Of a stretch of DNA of 6,249 nt, positions 56 through 6,249 are shown one piece after another. Position 1 is the first letter of the stretch. Each line of letters begins with the position of its first letter. Origin of the DNA: a virus; the IMG/VR virus record IMGVR_UViG_3300045988_006681, positions 1-6,249 of that record. The stretch is one strand, 5' to 3'. The notes under the pieces are model-generated. The model saw only the letters and a program-made list of their open reading frames with translations. It made no database searches and had not been told where the DNA came from. Both the position numbers and the translations under genes were made by a program.

Positions 56-743
56 CGATTGGAAATCTCAGTTTATTGGTGGTTGTTCTGCTCCTATCCA
101 GATTTCTGAGGTTATTACTACTGCTACTACTGCTGATGAATCTGGTGACCTATTGGCTACTTCTGGTGATATTAAAGGCAAAGGTGTTTCACTTAATCAA
201 GGTTCTTTCACTTTTGATTCTCGTGAACATGGTATTATTATTGGTATTCTATCTATTGTTCCTGAGGCTGATTATCAGTCCTCTATGGTTGATGCTTTTA
301 ATATGAAGACTTCTCGTGAACAGTATTTCCAGCCTGAATTCCAAGATTTAGGTAAACAGCCTATACAGTCTTCTGAGTTGTCGTTTTATGTTTATTCGAA
401 ATCGCCTACTAATCCTAAAGATAGGATTATTAATAATATTATAGGTTTTACTAACCGTTACATGGAGTATAAGACATCATTTAATAAGGTTCATGGTTCT
501 TTTAATACTCACGGTTCTCTTAGTTCTTGGGCTTCTCCTCGTAATAATCCTTTGTTTGTTAAGTCTGATTATTCTTCTGTGTTTATTAGTAATGCTTCGC
601 TTAAAGTTGACCCTCGTATTCTTAACCCTATTATGGCTGTTTCTTATGATGGTACTGAACCTACTGACCCATTTATTTGTGATTGTCACGTTTCCGTTCA
701 AGCTGTACGACCTATGAGTGTTAGTGGTGAACCTATGTTGTAA
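1..743 (+). CDS. VP1: Major capsid protein VP1 (F-like), C-terminal part; continues the 5240-6249 ORF across the circular junction (first full codon at nt 3)
   Basis: Frame 3 is open from nt 3 (GDYGSQIKAHYGFDAVHDDWKSQFIGG...) to TAA 741-743. nt 3 corresponds to 6197, which is in phase with ATG 5240 (6197-5240=957=3x319). The ORF track's TTG 'start' at 153 is internal. C-terminal blocks such as REQYFQPEFQDLGKQPI match my memory of microvirus capsid proteins. The joined CDS is 1698 nt, 565 aa. Confidence 0.93.
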   Translation, partial: GDYGSQIKAHYGFDAVHDDWKSQFIGGCSAPIQISEVITTATTADESGDLLATSGDIKGKGVSLNQGSFTFDSREHGIIIGILSIVPEADYQSSMVDAFNMKTSREQYFQPEFQDLGKQPIQSSELSFYVYSKSPTNPKDRIINNIIGFTNRYMEYKTSFNKVHGSFNTHGSLSSWASPRNNPLFVKSDYSSVFISNASLKVDPRILNPIMAVSYDGTEPTDPFICDCHVSVQAVRPMSVSGEPML

Positions 744-760
744 TTTTAATATTTTTGATT

Positions 761-1225
761 ATGAATTTTAAAGATTATTTTCTAAAATTGTATTTGGCTG
801 TTGGTTATTGTCCTTCTGTCGATTCTTATCCTCCAGAGAGTAAGGATTCGCTTTTGGATTATGATTCACTTTCAGTAATGTTTCCACTTAATGAAGAAAC
901 CGGACATGTAGTTGATTTGCTTACTCGTTTGTTGAATACTACAAATGAGTTGGAACGCAATCAGCTTATGCAGTATTTGCAAGATAATTCTTCTGCGTCA
1001 TCCTTTGATAAGCTTGACGATGAGACTAAATTGCAGTTGCTTAAACCTCGTTCTATTCAGTCTCTTGATGAGTTGTCTGAGTATGGTGATATGTTAAAAT
1101 CCGCTATTGAGCAGTTTAATGCTCCGTCTGACCCTGGTTCGTCTGACCCTGCTTCGTCTGACCCTGCTCCGTCTGACCCTGGTTCGTCTGACCCTGCTTC
1201 GTCTGACCCTGCTCCTGCGTCTTAA
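761..1225 (+). CDS. Acidic 154-aa protein with C-terminal SDPxS repeats; possible internal scaffolding (VP3-like) protein, function not established
   Basis: ORF from ATG 761 (the track's start at 755 is a TTG) to TAA 1223-1225, 17 nt after the VP1 stop. It uses the same T-ending codon bias as VP1/VP2. It is D/E-rich and has the size and position, next to the capsid genes, expected for a scaffolding protein. I recognise no diagnostic motif. Confidence 0.7.
   Translation: MNFKDYFLKLYLAVGYCPSVDSYPPESKDSLLDYDSLSVMFPLNEETGHVVDLLTRLLNTTNELERNQLMQYLQDNSSASSFDKLDDETKLQLLKPRSIQSLDELSEYGDMLKSAIEQFNAPSDPGSSDPASSDPAPSDPGSSDPASSDPAPAS
1121..1215 (+). repeat. Perfect tandem duplication of a 45-nt unit (1126-1170 = 1171-1215), itself three 15-nt subunits gtctgaccctgNtYc; encodes (SDPGS-SDPAS-SDPAP)x2
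   Basis: Six consecutive 15-mers read directly: gtctgaccctggttc, gtctgaccctgcttc and gtctgaccctgctcc, and then the same three again. The 5 nt gctcc at 1121-1125 also match the unit end. Confidence 0.97.
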
Positions 1226-1230
1226 TAGTT

Positions 1231-1262
1231 GCACCCCTTTGGGGTGCTTCTATTGTTTTATT
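1231..1262 (+). terminator. Hairpin gcacccc-ttt-ggggtgc (1231-1247) followed by a T-rich tail; candidate weak intrinsic terminator or attenuator between the acidic ORF and VP2
   Basis: Perfect 7-bp GC-rich stem with a 3-nt loop, starting 6 nt after the stop codon. The downstream ttctattgttttattgttt is T-rich but not a clean U-tract. Confidence 0.45.
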
Positions 1263-1277
1263 GTTTAATTTAAATTT
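1263..1277 (+). promoter_or_regulatory. 15-nt leader motif gtttaatttaaattt, copy 1 (6 nt upstream of the VP2 ATG)
   Basis: Identical 15-mer at 5218-5232, 7 nt upstream of the VP1 ATG. A related gtttaaatttt lies at 3390-3400 before the ATG at 3407. Confidence 0.35.
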
Positions 1278-1283
1278 TTTCTT

Positions 1284-2399
1284 ATGAAAATTAAAATTAA
1301 TCCTTCAATAGGCGGTTCTCTTATTTCTGGTGCTGCTGGTTTGCTTGGTGGTCTGTTTGGTTCGTCTTCTTCTGATAAGGCTGCTAAAGCACAATTACAA
1401 GCCGTTCGTGAAACGAATTCCTTAAATAAAGAGTTGGCTTATCAGCAAAATGAATGGAATTTGCAGCAATGGAATCGTCAGAATGCTTATAATGACCCGT
1501 CTGCCCAAATGTCTCGTTTCCGTGCTGCAGGTATCAATCCTTATTTTGCTCTTGGCAACATTACTTCTGGTAATGCAGAGGGTACTCTTTCTTCTGCTGA
1601 TTTAGCTAATCAACAACCCGTGATTTCACCGTTACAAGGTCAGTCTGGTCAAATTTTCGGTAATGCCCTTTCACAAGCTGCTCAATCCGGTGTAAATGCG
1701 TTTTATGATAACCAGATTAAAGCCGAGCAAGCTAAAAACTTGCAGTTGAAAAATGCTTTTGACGCTCAGTCTCTTGTGTACCGTGTTAATAGTCTCCGTT
1801 ATGACAACCAAGCAAAGATGATGGCTAATGAAGTTTATAATGGTACTATGCAATCTCTCATGAACATTACAAAGAATCAGGAGCGTCAAAGCTACATCAA
1901 GACTGCTACAGATGCACTACAACAAGTCGGTACTTCTTATGATGTTGCCATGAAGCAATTTCAACAGCATTATCTTCAACCACAACAGTATGATATTGGT
2001 AAGATGAACATTAACCAAATGGTTGCAAGTATTGCTAAAATGAAGTCCGAAGAGAATTGGAACAAGAAACAGACTGCTCTTGCCGCAAATTACGCTGCTG
2101 CTGCTCTTCTGTCTTCTCGTGCTTCTTGGCTTAATGCCAATGTTAATGATTATGGTACTCGCAATCACGCTTGGAATGAAACGCAGTCTACTTATCGTCA
2201 AAATTATGTTTTCAATCGTACTAAAGACGCTTTAGTTAAACAGACTTTACTTGGTGTTGATATGCTTACTAATCAAAAACGTATGTCTGATTGGAATGTT
2301 AAAAAAGATTTGTCTGCTCCTTATCGTGGTTTACATGCCTTTGGTGAATTTGGTCGTAATACTATTGGTGCTTGGTCACCTTTTACCGTCTTTAAATAA
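1284..2399 (+). CDS. VP2: Minor capsid / DNA pilot protein VP2 (H-like)
   Basis: 371-aa ORF. It has an N-terminal Gly-rich hydrophobic segment (GGSLISGAAGLLGGLFG), then a Q/N-rich helical region containing NAYNDPSAQMSRFRAAGINPYFAL. That contains the AG(L/I)NP block I associate with microvirus VP2/pilot proteins. Size and position fit. Confidence 0.88.
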   Translation: MKIKINPSIGGSLISGAAGLLGGLFGSSSSDKAAKAQLQAVRETNSLNKELAYQQNEWNLQQWNRQNAYNDPSAQMSRFRAAGINPYFALGNITSGNAEGTLSSADLANQQPVISPLQGQSGQIFGNALSQAAQSGVNAFYDNQIKAEQAKNLQLKNAFDAQSLVYRVNSLRYDNQAKMMANEVYNGTMQSLMNITKNQERQSYIKTATDALQQVGTSYDVAMKQFQQHYLQPQQYDIGKMNINQMVASIAKMKSEENWNKKQTALAANYAAAALLSSRASWLNANVNDYGTRNHAWNETQSTYRQNYVFNRTKDALVKQTLLGVDMLTNQKRMSDWNVKKDLSAPYRGLHAFGEFGRNTIGAWSPFTVFK

Positions 2400-2406
2400 T
2401 AAAATT

Positions 2407-2446
2407 GGTGCGCGCGCGTGTCTCACGTGTGTGCGCCTTTTTTTTT
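2407..2446 (+). terminator. Strong rho-independent terminator downstream of VP2
   Basis: ggtgcgcgcgcgtg / tct / cacgtgtgtgcgcc forms a 14-bp stem (10 Watson-Crick plus 4 G-U pairs, which pair only on the + strand). It is followed immediately by nine T (2438-2446) and starts 8 nt after the VP2 stop. Confidence 0.8.
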
Positions 2447-2538
2447 ATGTGCGAGTATCCGTTAAAGGATACGACAACCCAGCTTCTTTTACTCTATCCG
2501 TTAGGCATCAATACCTATGAAAAACACTAGCCTTTTTG

Positions 2539-2566
2539 TTTCTTTTTGGGCAATGCCAAAAAGAAA
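2539..2566 (+). other. Perfect 11-bp hairpin tttctttttgg / gcaatg / ccaaaaagaaa
   Basis: All 11 pairs (2539-2566 through 2549-2556) verified by hand. The 6-nt loop contains an ATG (2553-2555). Confidence 0.8.
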
Positions 2567-2567
2567 G

Positions 2568-2620
2568 CCGTCGGCAGACCCCGCGGAGCGTAAACGCGCT
2601 CGCTTCCGTGCGCCAGACGG
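2568..2620 (+). other. GC-rich irregular stem-loop
   Basis: ccgtc (2568-2572) pairs with gacgg (2616-2620). ggc (2573-2575) pairs with gcc (2612-2614), with A2615 bulged. cgcgg (2582-2586) pairs with ccgtg (2606-2610), including one G-U. The apical part (gagcg/cgctc or gcg-taaa-cgc) is ambiguous. Confidence 0.45.
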
Positions 2621-2631
2621 AAGGCAGGTTA

Positions 2632-2648
2632 TAGGGCTGCAAGCCCTA
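2632..2648 (+). other. Hairpin tagggct-gca-agcccta
   Basis: 7 contiguous complementary pairs (2632-2648 through 2638-2642). It may instead close at C2638-G2644 with loop tgcaa. Confidence 0.6.
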
Positions 2649-2674
2649 ATCGCCAGTTATCGTTAGTTCTCTGA

Positions 2675-2756
2675 GCGCAACATAATAGACGTTGCGACAT
2701 CAGAAAATTCTGCGTAGGCAAATTTTCCATGTCGTGACGTTTATTATGTTGTGCGC
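2675..2756 (+). other. Long extended hairpin A (about 36 bp over 82 nt)
   Basis: Lower stem of 26 bp, 2675-2700 with 2729-2756: a 2-nt bulge at 2751-2752 and three G-T pairs at 2694/2735, 2693/2736 and 2688/2741. It continues as gaaaatt (2703-2709) / aattttc (2721-2727) and tgc (2711-2713) / gca (2718-2720), with apical loop gtag. Confidence 0.85.
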
Positions 2757-2759
2757 CCG

Positions 2760-2766
2760 GCGAAGC
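2760..2766 (+). other. GCGAAGC mini-hairpin motif, copy 1 (in the 11-nt linker between hairpins A and B)
   Basis: Exact heptamer gcgaagc. The only other copy in the window is at 2880-2886. Confidence 0.6.
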
Positions 2767-2767
2767 A

Positions 2768-2841
2768 GAAAATGGACAATAATTTAGTCGTTTAAATTGC
2801 GACGAAGGAGCTTTTTAAACGTCTAGATTATGTTCATTTTC
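2768..2841 (+). other. Long extended hairpin B (about 27 bp over 74 nt)
   Basis: gaaaatggacaataatttagtcgtttaaa (2768-2796) pairs with tttaaacgtctagattatgttcattttc (2814-2841). Imperfections are one bulged A (2778), one T-T mismatch (2788/2822) and two G-T pairs (2775/2834, 2784/2826). The loop is 17 nt. Confidence 0.85.
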
Positions 2842-2876
2842 ACATTTTCTATTGTCGAACACTCAAGCAGGGAAAG

Positions 2877-2889
2877 CTGGCGAAGCCAG
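2877..2889 (+). other. Mini-hairpin ctggc-gaa-gccag containing GCGAAGC copy 2 (2880-2886)
   Basis: 5-bp GC-rich stem closing a GAA loop. Confidence 0.6.
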
Positions 2890-2919
2890 ACTATTTCTAC
2901 AGTTGTTTTGTACATTTTA

Positions 2920-2988
2920 TCAGTTTTCCCGTTAGGGCAAACCGCTCCCGTCGTTTGCAACCCCTCTTGTCTTATATACGAAAACTGA
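2920..2988 (+). other. Nested stem-loop domain: 9-bp closing helix with an internal 6-bp hairpin
   Basis: tcagttttc (2920-2928) pairs perfectly with gaaaactga (2980-2988). Inside it, gcaaac (2937-2942) pairs with gtttgc (2953-2958) around a 10-nt loop. gg (2935-2936) could pair with cc (2961-2962) across an AA bulge. Confidence 0.65.
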
Positions 2989-3042
2989 CAGAAAATATAT
3001 TTAATCTTGCTAGAGTCTTATTTTGTAAACTTAGACTTTGCA

Positions 3043-3054
3043 TTTCACGTGAAA
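3043..3054. repeat. Perfect 12-nt palindrome tttcacgtgaaa in the AT-rich tail of the non-coding module
   Basis: The sequence equals its own reverse complement. Flanking cat (3040-3042) and atg (3057-3059) extend the pairing across a 2-nt bulge. Confidence 0.7.
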
Positions 3055-3111
3055 CAATGTAAAATTAATTAAAAAACGTTATCATAATACCGGTTATAAT
3101 AAAATAATGCT

Positions 3112-3119
3112 TATATTTG
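3112..3119 (+). promoter_or_regulatory. Candidate Bacteroidota-type -7 promoter box (TAnnTTTG) for the early operon
   Basis: tatatttg is the only exact TAnnTTTG match I found by eye in 2447-3185. It lies 67 nt upstream of ATG 3186. I found no clear -33 TTTG at the expected spacing. Confidence 0.3.
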
Positions 3120-3185
3120 CCTTCGAAATCAGTTACATGGTGTTTCTGGTATATATTATTCATGTAAAAATAAATATTTTGGCTT

Positions 3186-3395
3186 ATGAAAAAGAAACTA
3201 CATTTGCAGCAATTTCTTCGTTGTGTGATTATGTATAATGACATTAATCATATACGGTCTTTACATTTTGCGGTTAATCCCGATTATGTAGACAATTTTT
3301 TAACTATTATACACGATACCTTTGTGAGTCCAGATGTGCAGTTTACTGATATTATCTATTCATATGATAATCGTGATTTTTTCAATCTCGTTTAA
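3186..3395 (+). CDS. Hypothetical 69-aa protein
   Basis: First ORF after the non-coding module. Its start context cttATGAAAAAG is like those of the other genes, and its stop lies 11 nt before the next ATG (operon-like packing). I recognise no motif. Confidence 0.5.
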   Translation: MKKKLHLQQFLRCVIMYNDINHIRSLHFAVNPDYVDNFLTIIHDTFVSPDVQFTDIIYSYDNRDFFNLV

Positions 3396-3406
3396 ATTTT
3401 GTAATT

Positions 3407-3613
3407 ATGAAAAAGGAAATTTTGAAAATTGTTATCAAAGTGTTAATCTATGCTTTAGGTCTTATTGGTAGTTATCTTGGTATTACTGCTTTGACTTCTT
3501 GCTCTTCTAACCGTGCTGTTGAGTGTTCTGGCAGAACAACTATTCTGATTCAAGATACCACTCATATTCAGCATTCTAGTGATTATTTTAGACGTTTCAA
3601 GTATAAATATTAA
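3407..3613 (+). CDS. Hypothetical 68-aa membrane-targeted protein; putative small lipoprotein
   Basis: MKKEILKIVIK (basic n-region), VLIYALGLIGSYLGITAL (hydrophobic h-region), then the lipobox-like L-T-S-C with Cys32, leaving a polar 36-residue tail. The ORF is spaced 11 nt from both neighbouring ORFs. Confidence 0.55.
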   Translation: MKKEILKIVIKVLIYALGLIGSYLGITALTSCSSNRAVECSGRTTILIQDTTHIQHSSDYFRRFKYKY

Positions 3614-3624
3614 ATTCTGTTATT

Positions 3625-5223
3625 ATGATTAGTATTAGAGACCAGACATACAAGATTCGCTCTATGGCTGATTATCAGCCATCAGAAAAGTGTTACAATC
3701 CTCAACGTATAGTTAACAAATATACTCATGAGGTTCTTTATGTTGAGTGTCGTAAATGTCCATATTGTCTACATAAGTATGCTACAGATTTAACTTCTCG
3801 CATAGTTCGTGAGTGCAAACAGCACAAATATAGTTTGTTTTTCACTCTCACTTATGATAATGAACATTTGCCTGTAATGGTTCGTCAGTGTGAGCATGTT
3901 TGGAAACTTGAAAATCGTGATGAAAAGCGTGATGGCTCTGTGCGTTCCCGTTACTTGTTCTTTGATAAAACACCTGATTATCAGTTTCCTCAAAAAATGT
4001 CTACTGATTGTTTTGCTGTTGTCTGCAAAGAAGATATTCAACGATTTCTTAAGCGTTTACGTTCAAAAATAGATTATGATTATGAATTATCCCAAGAACA
4101 AAAAACATTGCGTTACTTTATTTGTTCCGAGTATGGTCCCTGCACCAAACGTCCGCATTATCACGGAATCTTGTGGACCGATGACCCTACAATCTGTAGA
4201 GACTTGCCAAGGCTTATTCGTGCGACTTGGACGTTGTGTGCTCCTTCCAGAATTGATGCACAACTCGTCAGCGGTTCCGCTCCAGAGTACGTTGCGAAGT
4301 ATGTTGCTGGCAACAGCAATTTGTGCGAAGTTCTTCGAACTAAATATACCAAACCGTTCCACTTGGCTTCTAAGAACCCAGTTATCGGCTCTTTCAAAAC
4401 TACTCGAGAAGAAATTCTCGACGTACTCGTTAACCGATTTTTTGAAGTACCTAGAGTCCAAGATGGTTGTATTGAGGAAGCTTCCTATGATATATTACCC
4501 TACTCGTTTATTACTAGATACTTCCCTCCCTGCCAAGGCTTTAGCGTTTCGGATGATTCTTATAAACTATCATTATATGAAAAGTATAGAGATGGCAAGT
4601 ACCTCAAACGTGTTGACCCACAAACAAAACGGTATGTAAATAGTGAGCGCATAGGTTTTGCTTATGTTGATTGCCGATTTAGTTTTAAATATCAAGATTA
4701 TCGGTTCTTTCAGCATATTGTCTCTTTAGCTAATAAGCCTACTACCATTCCCAAACGTGATAAAAATGGTTTTATCGTTGGTTCGCAAGTTGTCTGTTTG
4801 TCTCCCTCCGATATTATTCATTTAATGGGTATGTTGTACGATTCTTACAAATTATATTGTTATAACTCTATGCTCCGCAATCTCGAAGTTATGTCTGATT
4901 ATTTAAAGGATTCTAGTCAATTGAAATTTTCTCTTTTGTCCTTTTATCCTTTTGTGTGGAAAGAGTTACCTCTATATTGTACTAAAGATGATTATGATTC
5001 TAAATTAGTTGTCGGTGGTTTATCTTTACGTAATATGTTGTCCGATTTCGGTTTTAAATATGAGGATATTTATTATGACGGTTGTATTTCTGATGATTTT
5101 ATTTCTGTTATGAATAATAATATCCTTGATAAAAATTATCGTATTCGTTTACAAGATAGTATTCTTAAAAATGATAAAAAGAAAAAGTATTCTGAGTTAT
5201 ATCTCGGTTTTAATCAAGTTTAA
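3625..5223 (+). CDS. VP4: Replication initiation protein VP4 (HUH rolling-circle endonuclease, gene A-like)
   Basis: 532-aa ORF with HUH-superfamily motifs in canonical order: motif I LFFTLTY (3835-3855), motif II PHYHGILW (4153-4176) and motif III two-tyrosine EYVAKYV (4285-4305). The N-terminal Cys cluster CYNP...CRKCPYC is typical of gokusho/alpa-type VP4. A start at Met14 (3664) cannot be excluded. Confidence 0.93.
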   Translation: MISIRDQTYKIRSMADYQPSEKCYNPQRIVNKYTHEVLYVECRKCPYCLHKYATDLTSRIVRECKQHKYSLFFTLTYDNEHLPVMVRQCEHVWKLENRDEKRDGSVRSRYLFFDKTPDYQFPQKMSTDCFAVVCKEDIQRFLKRLRSKIDYDYELSQEQKTLRYFICSEYGPCTKRPHYHGILWTDDPTICRDLPRLIRATWTLCAPSRIDAQLVSGSAPEYVAKYVAGNSNLCEVLRTKYTKPFHLASKNPVIGSFKTTREEILDVLVNRFFEVPRVQDGCIEEASYDILPYSFITRYFPPCQGFSVSDDSYKLSLYEKYRDGKYLKRVDPQTKRYVNSERIGFAYVDCRFSFKYQDYRFFQHIVSLANKPTTIPKRDKNGFIVGSQVVCLSPSDIIHLMGMLYDSYKLYCYNSMLRNLEVMSDYLKDSSQLKFSLLSFYPFVWKELPLYCTKDDYDSKLVVGGLSLRNMLSDFGFKYEDIYYDGCISDDFISVMNNNILDKNYRIRLQDSILKNDKKKKYSELYLGFNQV

Positions 5224-5232
5224 TTTAAATTT
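5218..5232 (+). promoter_or_regulatory. 15-nt leader motif gtttaatttaaattt, copy 2 (overlaps the VP4 stop, 7 nt upstream of the VP1 ATG)
   Basis: Identical to 1263-1277. Confidence 0.35.
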
Positions 5233-5239
5233 ATAAGTT

Positions 5240-6249
5240 ATGAAATCAGTATTTAGTAAAAAGTCTTCTCAAGTTCATTTGCAGCGTAATGCGTTTGACT
5301 TGTCTCATTCCGACGTATTTTCTATTGCGCCTGGAATGCTTCTCCCTATTCATGTTTCTGAGGTTAATCCTAATGAGCATTTTGTTATTAGTCCTGCTAA
5401 TTATGTTCGCACTATGCCATTAAATAGTGCTGCCTTTACTCGTTTGAAACAGCATATTGAGTTTTATTTTGTTCCTATGCGTACATTATGCCGTCAATTT
5501 AATCAGTTTATCGTTGGTACTGATTATAAAATCTCTTCTATTGATTCTTTAAATACTTATAAAGCAGCTTTGCCTTCTTTTAATATCATCAATGCAGCTA
5601 AGGGATTAATTGGTGATCCTACTTTAAATATTTTTGGTCTTCCTTTATCTAATGACCGTCTTCGTCTTTTCGATATGTTAGGTTATGGTCTTAATTCATC
5701 TAACTATAAAACATTCGTTCCTGTTATTGATAGTTTTCTTGTCAATCCTTTTCGTTTTCTCGCTTACCAAAAGGTTTATTTTGACTATTATCGTAATCCT
5801 CTTTATGAGCTTAATGACCCGTCTGCTTATAATGTAGATTCCTCTTTTGGTAGTATCTATGATCTTACAACGAATTCTTCGACTCTTCGTTATCGTAATT
5901 GGAATAAAGATTATTTTACTTCTTTGTCTCCTAGTTTTCAAGGTGCTGATTATTTGACTGACGTTGTTGATATGTACTCTGTTTTGAAATTGGAAGATAA
6001 TTCTAATTTAAAAGGTCATGATTTTCTCCCTGGTACTTCTTCTAATTTAACTTGGCATGGTAATTCTGTTCCGGCTTCTAGTACTGTTGGTGCTCTTATA
6101 CGTTCCGATAGTTCAGGTAATGTGTTTAATATTGCTAACCTCCGTGCTGCCTATGCATTAGATAAATTATATCGTATCTCTATTGCTGCTGGTGATGGTG
6201 ATTACGGCTCTCAGATTAAGGCTCATTATGGTTTTGACGCTGTTCATGA
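5240..6249 (+). CDS. VP1: Major capsid protein VP1 (F-like), N-terminal part; 3' end runs off the window and continues at nt 3
   Basis: I translated from ATG 5240 by hand and found no stop before the window end (last full codon ends at 6247). This ORF is absent from the supplied track, presumably because it lacks a stop. It contains MKSVFSKKSSQVHLQRNAFDLSHSDVFSIAPGMLLPIHVSEVNPNEHF, AYQKVYFDYYRNPLY, RYRNWNKDYFTSLSPSFQG and LRAAYALDKLYRISIAAGDGDYGSQIKAHYGF. I recognise these blocks as conserved in Microviridae major capsid proteins. Confidence 0.93.
   Translation, partial: MKSVFSKKSSQVHLQRNAFDLSHSDVFSIAPGMLLPIHVSEVNPNEHFVISPANYVRTMPLNSAAFTRLKQHIEFYFVPMRTLCRQFNQFIVGTDYKISSIDSLNTYKAALPSFNIINAAKGLIGDPTLNIFGLPLSNDRLRLFDMLGYGLNSSNYKTFVPVIDSFLVNPFRFLAYQKVYFDYYRNPLYELNDPSAYNVDSSFGSIYDLTTNSSTLRYRNWNKDYFTSLSPSFQGADYLTDVVDMYSVLKLEDNSNLKGHDFLPGTSSNLTWHGNSVPASSTVGALIRSDSSGNVFNIANLRAAYALDKLYRISIAAGDGDYGSQIKAHYGFDAVH
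6195..6249. repeat. Terminal direct repeat, copy 2 (identical to 1-55)
   Basis: See 1-55. Confidence 0.97.

What the first reader, a model, noticed from the sequence alone, without database searches (positions are those of the whole stretch)
2400..3185. 786-nt ORF-poor, locally GC-rich, structure-saturated module in an otherwise maximally compact microvirus genome
The other intergenic gaps are 17, 58, 11, 11 and 16 nt (744-760, 1226-1283, 3396-3406, 3614-3624, 5224-5239). In contrast, 2400-3185 has no ORF of 60 codons or more beyond the off-frame tail that ends at 2520, and it makes up about 13% of the 6,194-nt circle. Composition shifts abruptly: by hand count 61 of the 100 nt at 2561-2660 are G+C, against a visibly T-rich, AT-rich coding sequence. 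On the + strand the tract folds into an almost uninterrupted chain of helices: 2407-2437, 2455-2472, 2539-2566, 2568-2620, 2632-2648, 2675-2756, 2768-2841, 2877-2889, 2920-2988 (nested 2937-2958), 3011-3040 and 3040-3059. Capsid volume strongly penalises dispensable DNA in Microviridae, so retention implies function. Candidate functions: (a) a complementary-strand origin read from the packaged ssDNA, as with the hairpin origins of G4, phiX174 and M13; (b) a large structured ncRNA; (c) a captured host-derived element. The module sits directly behind a strong terminator, and I found no TAnnTTTG box inside 2447-3100. That slightly favours a DNA-level role or read-through transcription over an independently promoted RNA. 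I cannot match it to any Rfam family from memory.
Basis: partly seen in the sequence, partly recalled or inferred. Interest (0 to 1): 0.8.

Follow-up and report, generated by a model that had tools for sequence, protein, structure and literature searches.

The report
Hairpin-rich control region of gut microvirus
The gene-free 786 bases are the control region of a temperate gut microvirus: a terminator, three conserved cassettes of single-strand hairpins that most likely let the host start copying the incoming DNA strand, a chromosome-integration site and a promoter.

Summary
2400-3185 has no ORF under any stop-codon reassignment, matches no Rfam family and no tRNA, and is locally GC-rich. It folds far better than shuffles (z = -9.8 on the + strand, -5.4 to -7.4 on the - strand). 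The excess structure lies in 2400-2900.

The tract is composite:
- terminator, 2407-2446
- core cassette, 2447-2665
- double-hairpin cassette, 2668-2848, absent from a near-identical sibling phage
- three-way-junction cassette, 2915-2993
- conserved palindrome, 3041-3056
- dif-like attP, 3077-3104, which is the direct repeat flanking integrated proviruses
- Bacteroidetes-type -7 box, 3112-3119

Stems covary: 43 of 121 pairs show compensatory changes. G·T outnumbers A·C 180 to 8, so the structure is read on the packaged strand. The core is 75-91% identical in microviruses whose capsid proteins are only about 29% identical. It also occurs in an unrelated ~10-kb rolling-circle phage family with a Rep_trans initiator, SSB and an integrase.

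Loops are mostly the DNA-specific mini-hairpin types c(GNA)g and c(GNNA)g, known from the G4, St-1 and α3 complementary-strand origins. No promoter precedes the cassettes.

Best reading: portable, host-primed complementary-strand origin cassettes. This is inferred, not shown. A structured RNA is not excluded.

The parts
2407..2446 (+). Intrinsic terminator ending the VP4-VP1-ORF154-VP2 transcription unit: a 14-bp GC-rich hairpin followed by T9.
   Evidence: Terminator scan. The hairpin is conserved with 6 compensatory pairs in 16 relatives.
2447..2665 (+). Core cassette A. It contains hairpin 2455-2472, mini-hairpin CC-GTTA-GG at 2498-2505, the conserved unpaired tract 2507-2532, hairpin 2539-2566 with a conserved GGGCAATGCC tip, compound GC-rich hairpins 2568-2624, and hairpin 2632-2648 flanked by GGTTATA / TAATCGCC.
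   Evidence: Present on the gene strand in 120 of 120 copies in microvirus loci. 111 distinct versions were collected. Stems covary. It also occurs in a 10-kb Rep_trans phage family.
2507..2532 (+). Conserved single-stranded tract CATCAATACCTATGAAAAACACTAGCC, the candidate priming or recognition site. ATGAAAAACAC is its most conserved part.
   Evidence: Predicted unpaired in the DNA-parameter and centroid folds and in the alignment consensus. Most homologues were found with this motif, so its invariance there is partly ascertainment. In a motif-independent sample, 5 of 9 microviruses have it exactly and 3 more keep ATGAAAAACAC.
2668..2848 (+). Cassette B: two long imperfect hairpins, H6 at 2675-2756 and H7 at 2768-2841. 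It is an insertion/deletion unit.
   Evidence: 13 and 14 compensatory pairs respectively. Precisely absent from L089, whose VP1 is 91% identical. Present at 75-91% identity in phages with about 27% VP1 identity.
2851..2889 (+). Second conserved unpaired tract ATTGTCGAACACTCAAGC (2851-2868), followed by the GCGAAGC mini-hairpin CTGGCGAAGCCAG (2877-2889).
   Evidence: Nearly invariant in 16 sequences that were not selected on it. The hairpin has 2 compensatory pairs, with loop variants GAA, GTA and GCA. AACACT occurs on the + strand only here and in the core tract.
2915..2993 (+). Cassette C: an outer stem CAGTTTTC/GAAAACTG enclosing two hairpins and a conserved unpaired CCTCTTGTCYTATA.
   Evidence: Found in other microvirus lineages. 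6 of 19 pairs show compensatory change and CTTGTC is invariant.
3041..3056 (.). Conserved palindrome CATTTCACGTGAAACA, about 20 nt upstream of attP. Possibly a protein-binding site.
   Evidence: Conserved next to attP in all aligned relatives and proviruses. No excess folding energy here.
3077..3104 (.). dif-like attP, CGTTATCATAA-TACCGG-TTATAATAAAA. The crossover lies within CATAATACCGGTTA.
   Evidence: In integrated proviruses the segment is duplicated as attL and attR, about 6.3-6.5 kb apart, next to the same host flanks. This matches the published dif-like att sites of Bacteroidetes microvirus proviruses (PMC3091885).
3112..3119 (+). Bacteroidetes-type -7 promoter box TATATTTG, serving the s69-s68-VP4-VP1-ORF154-VP2 unit.
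   Evidence: It is the first TAnnTTTG on the + strand after the terminator. It is kept as TATMTTTG or TATTTTTG at the same place in relatives.

Best explanation
The tract is the non-coding control region of a temperate microvirus of the Bacteroidetes-provirus (BMV) type. It lies between the terminator of the single transcription unit (2407-2446) and that unit's promoter (-7 box 3112-3119).

Shown here:
- It contains a dif-like attP (3077-3104), so the double-stranded form can integrate at the host dif-like site without a phage integrase.
- It contains three independently conserved cassettes of hairpins that form on the packaged (+) strand only.

Inferred mechanism:
- After the single-stranded genome enters the cell, host SSB coats it except where very stable mini-hairpins, c(GNA)g and c(GNNA)g, and the longer stems resist melting.
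- These hairpins frame short conserved unpaired tracts: ATACCTATGAAAAACAC in the core and GTCGAACACTCAAGC after cassette B.
- A host priming enzyme (DnaG primase, or RNA polymerase) recognises this landmark and lays down the RNA primer for complementary-strand synthesis, converting ssDNA to the replicative form.
- Because the partner is a host enzyme and not a phage protein, the cassettes are portable. They have been exchanged among microviruses with very different capsid and Rep proteins, and with an unrelated rolling-circle phage.
- Several cassettes in one genome could give redundancy or a wider host range, as with ssoA plus ssoU in some rolling-circle plasmids.
For: 1. Real, strand-specific structure.
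- z = -9.8 on + against -5.4 (DNA parameters) on -.
- 97.6% of cells are paired, against 36-48% when partners are slid. 43 pairs have double changes, against 8-14 when slid. 0 of 500 shuffles reach the observed values.
- 180 G·T cells against 8 A·C cells in stems.
- The element is on the gene (packaged) strand in 120 of 120 microvirus copies.

2. No sign of a separate RNA gene.
- The tract follows a strong terminator, and no TAnnTTTG occurs before 3112.
- In the 10-kb phage the element lies on the strand opposite all genes. There is no -7 box within 400 nt upstream and no consistent T-run downstream.

3. DNA-type loops.
- Five c(GNA)g, c(GNNA)g or c(GNAB)g hairpins with stems of 3 or more pairs lie in 2447-3020 on the + strand. 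0.38 are expected, and 0 of 2000 shuffles reach five.
- None lies on the - strand, and none in the other 5408 nt of the + strand.
- Across 111 distinct cores there are 1.77 per copy on the element strand and 0.11 on the reverse strand.
- GNA triloops account for 110 of 244 small loops. GNRA accounts for 1 and UNCG for 0.
- Loop positions vary only at N, for example GTTA, GCTA, GCAA, GTCA, GCCA and GATA.
- The mini-hairpin review (PMC13037366) reports GCGAAAGC at the G4 primase start site, GCGTTAGC in St-1 and α3, and CCGAAGG in RSF1010 ssiA. It also reports poor SSB binding and much lower stability of the RNA versions.

4. Same layout as G4 oric. In G4, hairpin I with its mini-hairpin lies immediately 5' of the start site CCCTACTG. 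Here the mini-hairpin lies 5' of ATACCTATG.

5. Portability between unrelated replicons that both pass through ssDNA.
- The core is 75-91% identical between phages with 24-30% VP1 and VP4 identity.
- The same core occurs in a ~10-kb phage family encoding SSB, an integrase and a Rep whose close homologues carry PF02486 Rep_trans. Its nearest cultured relatives are the Cellulophaga phages phi12:2, phi12a:1, phi18:4 and phi48:1 (ssDNA phages, by recollection). This Rep is not detectably related to VP4.

6. Precedent. Conserved intergenic hairpins with compensatory changes have been tentatively linked to negative-strand initiation in other microvirus clades (PMC9865509).
Against: - No priming was observed. 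The function is inferred entirely from sequence.
- About 10% of stem cells are G·T, several of them invariant. This is more typical of RNA helices than of DNA hairpins.
- RNA and DNA energy models give the same z-score on the + strand, so thermodynamics does not discriminate between them.
- The packaged strand is also the mRNA-sense strand, so strand specificity cannot separate ssDNA from a read-through RNA.
- About 450-550 nt in three cassettes is far more than the ~140 nt of G4 oric or the ~55 nt phiX174 site.
- One cassette is missing from a sibling phage, so not all of it can be essential.
- The E. coli primase trinucleotide CTG is absent from the conserved tract, and the CS-6 box of ssoA origins is absent.
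- Which strand of the 10-kb phage is displaced or packaged is unknown.
- Most homologues were collected with the conserved motif itself, which inflates its apparent invariance.
Confidence: 0.5

Rival explanations
1. The cassettes encode one or more structured non-coding RNAs. These would be made by read-through of the terminator or from an unrecognised promoter, and would act on a host factor, for example as a decoy, an anti-defence RNA or a regulator of lysogeny.
For: Extensive covariation, conserved G·U pairs and conserved unpaired tracts, as in functional RNAs. RNA-parameter z = -9.8. The element strand is the mRNA-sense strand in microviruses.
Against: No Rfam family matches the window or five homologues. 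The tract lies directly behind a strong terminator, with no TAnnTTTG until 3112. No promoter box or terminator flanks the copies in the 10-kb phage, where the element is antisense to all genes. Loops are GNA and GNNA types with pyrimidines at N. GNRA accounts for 1 of 244 small loops and UNCG for 0. Helices of about 33 uninterrupted pairs (26 + 7) would be RNase III substrates (general knowledge).
Confidence: 0.2
2. The conserved tract plus the adjacent hairpin is the viral-strand (+) origin: the site bound and nicked by the phage Rep (VP4) for rolling-circle replication and packaging.
For: The tract shares AACACTA..AG and a CAA..AT-rich layout with the phiX174 30-nt origin CAACTTGATATTAATAACACTATAGACCAC (my recollection of that sequence). 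It lies in the only large non-coding region. The (+) origin of this phage group is undefined.
Against: The same sequence serves phages whose VP4 proteins are only 23-27% identical. It also occurs in a phage whose Rep is of the unrelated Rep_trans type, with no similarity to VP4. Beyond a 7-mer, the match to the phiX174 origin is no better than chance.
Confidence: 0.08
3. The hairpins are accessory or substrate structures for Xer-type site-specific recombination of the single-stranded genome, as in the folded attP(+) of CTXphi.
For: The element sits about 550 nt from the dif-like attP in microviruses, and next to the integrase gene in the 10-kb phage. Extra dif-like sites were noted in some BMV proviruses (PMC3091885). 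The 5' arm of H6, AACATAATA, resembles the attP/attB arm ACCATAATA.
Against: attP itself is a complete two-armed dif-like site in a region with no excess folding, which fits integration of the double-stranded form. Integrated proviruses exist that lack cassette B, for example L074, L103 and L117. The core contains no dif-like sequence.
Confidence: 0.07
4. The cassettes are selfish, MITE-like hairpin elements that spread among ssDNA or rolling-circle phages and give little benefit to the carrier.
For: Presence/absence polymorphism between near-identical phages. High nucleotide identity across very divergent carriers. Tandem duplications in L064 and L137.
Against: The position (after VP2, before attP) and the orientation are always the same in microviruses, 120 of 120. 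There are no terminal inverted repeats or target-site duplications at the L089 deletion junction, only a 3-nt microhomology. The core has not been seen to be missing from any carrier lineage sampled. Capsid size limits penalise junk DNA.
Confidence: 0.1

Closest known systems
Primase-dependent complementary-strand origin of phages G4, St-1 and α3 (G4-type oric / ssi)
   Same: Non-coding and on the packaged strand of a microvirus. A cluster of stable hairpins with a GCGNNAGC-type mini-hairpin lies just 5' of a short unpaired tract (G4: ...GGCGAAAGCC...CCCTACTG; here: ...CCGTTAGG...ATACCTATG). It depends on host factors rather than phage proteins.
   Different: 3-4 times larger and built of three separable cassettes. 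There is no sequence similarity and no CTG. Additional hairpins lie 3' of the conserved tract, whereas in G4 all three hairpins lie 5' of the start. It is shared with a non-microvirus phage. Priming has not been demonstrated.
Single-strand origins (ssoA, ssoU, ssoT, ssoW) of rolling-circle plasmids
   Same: Orientation-specific, non-coding, heavily folded single-strand signals used by host enzymes. From the plasmid literature (my recollection), they are exchanged as cassettes between replicons with unrelated Rep proteins, and sometimes more than one is present per replicon.
   Different: The CS-6 box TAGCGW is absent from the tract. There is no sequence relation. The carriers are phages of a different phylum.
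Intergenic region of Ff phages (M13/f1)
   Same: About 500 nt of consecutive hairpins lying between the last terminator and the next promoter of an ssDNA phage, concentrating the cis-acting signals (my recollection of that region).
   Different: Ff phages use RNA polymerase at a double hairpin, and the region also holds the packaging signal and the (+) origin. There is no evidence for either here. The phage family is different.
dif-like attachment sites of Bacteroidetes microvirus proviruses BMV1-7 (Krupovic & Forterre 2011)
   Same: No phage integrase. A dif-like site is duplicated at the provirus ends. Genome of about 6.2-6.5 kb with gene order VP4-VP1-...-VP2.
   Different: This explains only 3077-3104 of the tract. 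The paper passages retrieved by term search contain no description of the hairpin cassettes.

Membership tests
G4-type primase-dependent complementary-strand origin | Lies in non-coding DNA on the packaged viral strand | tested here: met
   Located between the VP2 stop and the promoter. On the gene strand in 120 of 120 microvirus copies. G·T:A·C = 180:8 shows + strand folding.
G4-type primase-dependent complementary-strand origin | Stable hairpins including a GCGNNAGC/GCGNAGC mini-hairpin adjacent to the start site | tested here: met
   CC-GNNA-GG or GC-GNNA-GC lies 11-15 nt 5' of the conserved ATG tract in nearly all of the 44 aligned cores. Enrichment is 5 observed against 0.38 expected. G4 comparison; review.
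G4-type primase-dependent complementary-strand origin | Primase recognition trinucleotide 5'-CTG-3' next to hairpin I | tested here: not met
   There is no CTG in 2507-2532. The conserved trinucleotides there are ATG, CAC and (usually) CTA. The specificity of Bacteroidota DnaG is unknown to me.
G4-type primase-dependent complementary-strand origin | Primer RNA made by DnaG on SSB-coated ssDNA | not testable with these tools
   Requires biochemistry.
ssoA-type single-strand origin of rolling-circle plasmids | Conserved CS-6 box TAGCGT/A in a terminal loop | tested here: not met
   The only TAGCGW in the genome is at 4542, inside VP4.
ssoA-type single-strand origin of rolling-circle plasmids | Cassette-like exchange between replicons with unrelated Rep proteins | tested here: met
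   The same core occurs in microviruses (VP4, PF23343) and in a 10-kb phage family with a Rep_trans initiator.
Any Rfam RNA family (release 15) | Covariance-model match at or near the gathering score | tested here: not met
   Window: the best hit has E = 0.9 (a snoRNA, 17.9 bits against a 40-bit gathering score). Five homologous loci: nothing relevant. No tRNA or tmRNA.
dif-like attP of Bacteroidetes microvirus proviruses | Site duplicated as direct repeats at the provirus ends; no integrase gene in the phage | tested here: met
   attL and attR copies are about 6.3-6.5 kb apart, with identical host flanks in many contigs. None of the six ORFs is a recombinase.
dif-like attP of Bacteroidetes microvirus proviruses | Two ~11-bp arms around a 6-bp spacer resembling bacterial dif; recombined by XerC/D | tested here: inconclusive
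   CGTTATCATAA-TACCGG-TTATAATAAAA has the CATAA-N6-TTA layout by eye. No dif profile or Xer binding test was available.
phiX174-type viral-strand origin | The 30-nt origin sequence recognised by protein A | tested here: not met
   Only AACACTA and a few flanking bases are shared. Carriers have unrelated Rep proteins.

The most novel reading that the evidence does not exclude
The three cassettes are a previously undescribed family of portable single-strand elements that move between unrelated rolling-circle phages of gut bacteria. They act on a host factor in a way other than simple priming. Examples would be a large structured phage RNA or folded ssDNA that sequesters SSB, a nuclease or a defence sensor, or that controls the lysis-lysogeny choice.
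Probability: 0.15. Interest if true: 0.85.

Novelty: new variant of a known kind. Interest (0 to 1): 0.6.

Why it matters
Microviruses are among the commonest phages of the human gut, yet how the incoming single strand of the gokushovirus-like and Bacteroidetes-provirus-type groups is converted to double-stranded DNA appears not to have been worked out. Defined complementary-strand origins are known to me only for the coliphages.

This tract gives a concrete, conserved and testable candidate: a ~220-nt core with a defined unpaired tract and mini-hairpins. It suggests that such origins are host-matched cassettes traded between unrelated ssDNA or rolling-circle phages, much as single-strand origins are traded between plasmids. 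If so, the cassette type could serve as a host-range marker for uncultured gut ssDNA phages. It could also be a useful part for engineering ssDNA replicons in Bacteroidales.

The work also maps the attP and the promoter. This shows how the whole transcription unit stays intact in the prophage.

Tried and rejected
- Hidden or recoded protein gene: all six frames carry 12-20 stops, including TAA, in every frame. Small ORFs 2251-2517, 2517-2663, 2830-2985 and 3065-3244(-) have no PHROG hit. The 'MKNTS' ORF starting at 2517 changes frame and length (8 to more than 50 aa) between relatives. Rejected.
- Known RNA family, tRNA or tmRNA: none.
- Host-derived element: a genome-contig scan found one phage-like contig only.
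- Protein-seeded locus search with VP4 found nothing usable. Homologues were obtained instead with conserved DNA words.
- ssoA membership: the CS-6 box is absent.
- sigma-70 promoter scan: uninformative for a Bacteroidetes-type host.
- Host identification from provirus flanks with NCBIfam gave only McrBC-like genes. The one genome-contig hit is labelled as a Lachnospiraceae MAG, which conflicts with the Bacteroidetes-type promoter and may be a binning artefact. The host is therefore inferred, not shown.
- PDB sequence search for the 10-kb phage Rep found nothing. Its family came from the Pfam tags of close homologues.
- Base-composition skew of the 10-kb phage as a clue to its packaged strand: the element strand is T-rich overall, but third codon positions are balanced. 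Inconclusive.
- A Bacteroidetes -7 box inside the H7 stem (TAATTTTG in most relatives) is replaced in the window by TAATTTAG with a compensating change. The pairing is what is conserved, not the box.
Full report
**Context**

The window is a complete circular microvirus genome of 6194 nt with a 55-nt terminal repeat. All genes are on the + strand:
- VP1 major capsid, 5240..743 (Phage_F)
- ORF154, 761-1225
- VP2 pilot protein, 1284-2399 (phrog_8689)
- two small ORFs, 3186-3395 and 3407-3613
- VP4 Rep, 3625-5223 (PF23343 / phrog_942)

The order VP4-VP1-...-VP2 and the size match the Bacteroidetes-associated microvirus proviruses described by Krupovic and Forterre (PMC3091885). The + strand is T-rich, with 55% T at third codon positions, as expected for a packaged single strand.

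**Checking the observation**

Non-coding status:
- 2400-3185 has 12-20 stop codons of all three kinds in each of the six frames, so no recoding rescues an ORF.
- Its short ORFs hit nothing.
- No tRNA and no Rfam family match, either here or in five homologous loci.

Composition and signals:
- G+C is 61/100 at 2561-2660 and 45% over 2447-2900, against 36% genome-wide.
- The terminator at 2407-2437 plus T9 is the strongest in the genome.
- The first Bacteroidetes-type -7 box (TAnnTTTG) on the + strand after the terminator is at 3112-3119.

Folding:
- The tract folds much better than dinucleotide shuffles. With RNA parameters, z = -9.8 (+) and -7.4 (-). With DNA parameters, z = -9.8 (+) and -5.4 (-).
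- In 200-nt windows across the genome, the excess is confined to 2401-2900. 2901-3185 behaves like shuffled sequence.
- Two independent metagenome assemblies, L113 and L089, carry the same tract with both flanking genes at 96-98% identity. A chimeric assembly is therefore unlikely.

**Relatives**

BLAST against deposited phages found partial matches only in pig, human and Ciona-associated microviruses. Exact-word scans of IMG/VR and public metagenomes with conserved words from the tract gave about 130 loci, almost all microvirus-sized gut contigs. A scan of one genome per bacterial species found a single, phage-like contig. The sequence is therefore not a host gene.

The striking point is the contrast between DNA and protein conservation. 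2400-2890 is 75-91% identical in phages whose VP1 and VP4 are only 24-30% identical to the window's. The median VP1 identity of carriers is 29%. The small ORF s68 next to the tract is also unusually conserved, at 63-81%. The segment has evidently been exchanged between very different microviruses.

**Anatomy: a mosaic, not one module**

- *Terminator*, 2407-2446.
- *Core cassette A*, 2447-2665. It has a hairpin, then a four-base-loop mini-hairpin (CC-GTTA-GG, 2498-2505), then an unpaired tract CATCAATACCTATGAAAAACACTAGCC (2507-2532). Next comes a hairpin with the conserved tip GGGCAATGCC (2539-2566), then GC-rich hairpins. This is the part shared by the widest set of phages.
- *Cassette B*, 2668-2848. 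These are the two long hairpins H6 and H7. It is precisely missing from L089, a phage with 91-96% identical proteins, with only a 3-nt microhomology at the junction. It is nonetheless present at high identity in distant phages.
- *Second conserved unpaired tract*, ATTGTCGAACACTCAAGC (2851-2868), followed by a GCGAAGC mini-hairpin (2877-2889).
- *Cassette C*, 2915-2993. This is a three-way junction with a conserved unpaired CCTCTTGTCYTATA. It occurs in yet other lineages.
- *Palindrome*, 3041-3056.
- *attP*, 3077-3104. In many longer contigs, window positions 2400-3104 lie at one end of a 6.3-6.5-kb provirus and 3079-3185 at the other. The repeated core is CATAATACCGGTTA, and the host flanks are the same in most contigs. 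This is the dif-like attachment site known for this phage group.
- *Promoter -7 box*, 3112-3119, conserved in relatives.

Integration at attP leaves promoter, genes, terminator and cassettes as one intact block in the prophage.

**The structure is real and belongs to the + strand**

On 16 aligned sequences, 97.6% of cells in 121 predicted pairs are standard pairs, against 36-48% when partners are slid by 1-3 columns. 43 pairs show changes on both sides, against 8-14 when slid. No shuffle out of 500 reaches the observed values.

Compensatory changes support the terminator (6 pairs), the core hairpins, H6 (13), H7 (14), the 2877-2889 hairpin (2) and cassette C (6 of 19). Two proposed long-range helices are not supported.

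In stems outside the terminator there are 180 G·T cells against 8 A·C cells. The selected fold is therefore that of the + strand alone. A double-strand cruciform or a protein-binding palindrome is excluded.

In microviruses the + strand is both the packaged DNA and the mRNA sense. This result alone cannot separate ssDNA from RNA.

**DNA or RNA?**

Four observations favour folded DNA.

1. *Position.* The cassettes lie between a strong terminator and the only promoter box.

2. *Loop types.* The loops are those that are exceptionally stable in DNA but not in RNA.
   - Five c(GNA)g, c(GNNA)g or c(GNAB)g hairpins lie in 2447-3020 on the + strand. 0.38 are expected, and 0 of 2000 shuffles reach five. 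None lies on the - strand or in the rest of the + strand.
   - Among 111 distinct cores, GNA triloops make up 110 of 244 small loops. GNRA accounts for 1 and UNCG for 0.
   - The mini-hairpin before the conserved tract varies only at the N positions (GTTA, GCTA, GCAA, GTCA, GCCA, GATA), while its outer pair flips C-G to G-C.
   - A 2026 review of 'mini-hairpin DNA' (PMC13037366) reports these motifs (GCGNAGC, GCGNNAGC) at the primase start site of G4 and in St-1 and α3, in RSF1010 ssiA and in N4 hairpin promoters. It also reports that they bind SSB poorly and that the RNA versions are far less stable.

3. *A second, unrelated carrier.* The same core occurs, in one or two tandem copies, in a ~10-kb gut phage family (L057, L077, L080, L137, L064, L115).
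   - That family encodes an integrase, an M15 endolysin, an SSB and a 496-aa Rep.
   - Close homologues of that Rep carry PF02486 (Rep_trans), the rolling-circle initiator family.
   - Its nearest cultured relatives are the Cellulophaga phages phi12:2, phi12a:1, phi18:4 and phi48:1, which I recall to be ssDNA phages. It has no similarity to VP4.
   - There the element lies on the strand opposite to all genes, in the long non-coding stretch between rep and int. No -7 box lies within 400 nt upstream and there is no consistent T-run downstream.
   - Two unrelated replicons that both pass through a single-stranded stage thus share a cis element that cannot be specific to either Rep. That is what is expected of a host-primed single-strand origin. 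From my recollection of the plasmid literature, it also parallels the cassette-like exchange of sso elements among rolling-circle plasmids.

4. *Layout.* The arrangement resembles G4 oric, read here from NC_001420. In G4, hairpin I with GCGAAAGC lies immediately 5' of CCCTACTG, where the primer starts. Here the mini-hairpin lies 5' of ATACCTATGAAAAACAC.

**What speaks against this, and what remains open**

- Nothing here demonstrates priming.
- About 10% G·T in stems, several of them invariant, looks more like RNA.
- The RNA and DNA energy models fit equally well.
- The tract is several times larger than any defined microvirus complementary-strand origin.
- One cassette is dispensable in a sibling phage.
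- CTG, the E. coli DnaG signal, and CS-6, the ssoA box, are both absent. The element is therefore not a member of either defined family, although it may work like them.
- The apparent invariance of ATGAAAAACACTAGC is partly circular, because most homologues were fished with it. In a sample collected with the attP-side palindrome instead, 5 of 9 new microviruses had it exactly. Three others kept ATGAAAAACAC followed by different hairpins.
- The roles of cassettes B and C are unknown. Possibilities are second priming sites (both carry conserved unpaired tracts, and AACACT on the + strand occurs only in the two conserved tracts), an RNA-polymerase-type double hairpin as in Ff phages, or something else.
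- The host is inferred to be Bacteroidales. The grounds are the promoter type, the lack of Shine-Dalgarno-like starts and the published proviruses. The single genome hit is labelled Lachnospiraceae.

**Rivals**

- *Structured ncRNA*, about 0.2. It remains possible for the reasons above.
- *Viral-strand origin for VP4*, about 0.08. It is unlikely because carriers have unrelated Reps.
- *CTXphi-like folded recombination substrate*, about 0.07. It is unlikely because attP is a complete dif-like site in an unfolded region, and proviruses exist without cassette B.
- *Purely selfish hairpin element*, about 0.1. This fits the indel polymorphism but not the fixed position and orientation (120 of 120).

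**Novelty**

Complementary-strand origins made of hairpins are known. So are dif-type attP sites in Bacteroidetes microviruses, and conserved intergenic hairpins have been reported in other microvirus clades (PMC9865509).

The following appear new, and text searches for its motifs found nothing relevant:
- this particular element family
- its three-cassette modularity
- its strong DNA-mini-hairpin signature
- its sharing between microviruses and a Rep_trans phage family

I rate it a new variant of a known kind, of moderate to high interest. It offers a directly testable origin candidate for a very abundant and poorly understood group of gut phages.

Noticed in passing
window 3407-3613: The 68-aa ORF s68 begins with a signal peptide ending in a lipobox-like LTSC. 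It is 63-81% identical in microviruses whose capsid proteins are about 27% identical, so it travels with the non-coding module. It may be a lysis or superinfection-exclusion lipoprotein. No family hit in Pfam, PHROGs or NCBIfam.
   Followed up: partly
window 1105-1247: ORF154 ends in six tandem 15-nt repeats encoding (A/G)(S/P)SDP units. It is followed by a terminator-like hairpin GCACCCCTTTGGGGTGC (1231-1247) in the 58-nt gap. The 1101-1300 window has folding z = -8.5, the only outlier outside the tract.
   Followed up: no
L057 (whole, 10538 nt); also L077, L080, L137, L064, L115: An abundant ~10-kb human-gut phage family encoding a Rep_trans initiator, SSB, a 265-aa tyrosine integrase, an M15 endolysin and an Ig-domain structural protein. 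Its Rep clusters hold hundreds to thousands of member sequences. Its nearest cultured relatives are the Cellulophaga phages phi12:2, phi12a:1, phi18:4 and phi48:1. It carries one or two tandem copies of the core cassette on the non-coding strand.
   Followed up: partly
window 3041-3056: The palindrome CATTTCACGTGAAACA (CACGTG centre) is conserved about 20 nt upstream of attP in essentially all relatives. A related TTTCAC lies in the host flank of attL. It may be a binding site for a regulator or recombination accessory protein.
   Followed up: no
window 2681-2700 (5' arm of H6): AACATAATAGACGTT resembles the attP/attB arm plus spacer, ACCATAATACCGGTT (11 of 17 positions). This could be a degenerate dif half-site inside the hairpin stem, or chance.
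   Followed up: no
L054 3809-3880 and 10108-10212; the same in L058, L105, L123, L124: The host DNA flanking the integrated proviruses is nearly identical across many human-gut contigs. It carries inverted repeats around the dif-like site (CCTCTTTCTTTTT ... AAAAAGAGGAAAG), which suggests one preferred chromosomal site in one host group.
   Followed up: partly
L035 (IMGVR_UViG_3300045988_168943): Another microvirus contig of exactly 6194 nt, but a different phage (VP1 41% identical). It shares only the core motif and the attP-side palindrome. The equal length is a coincidence.
   Followed up: yes
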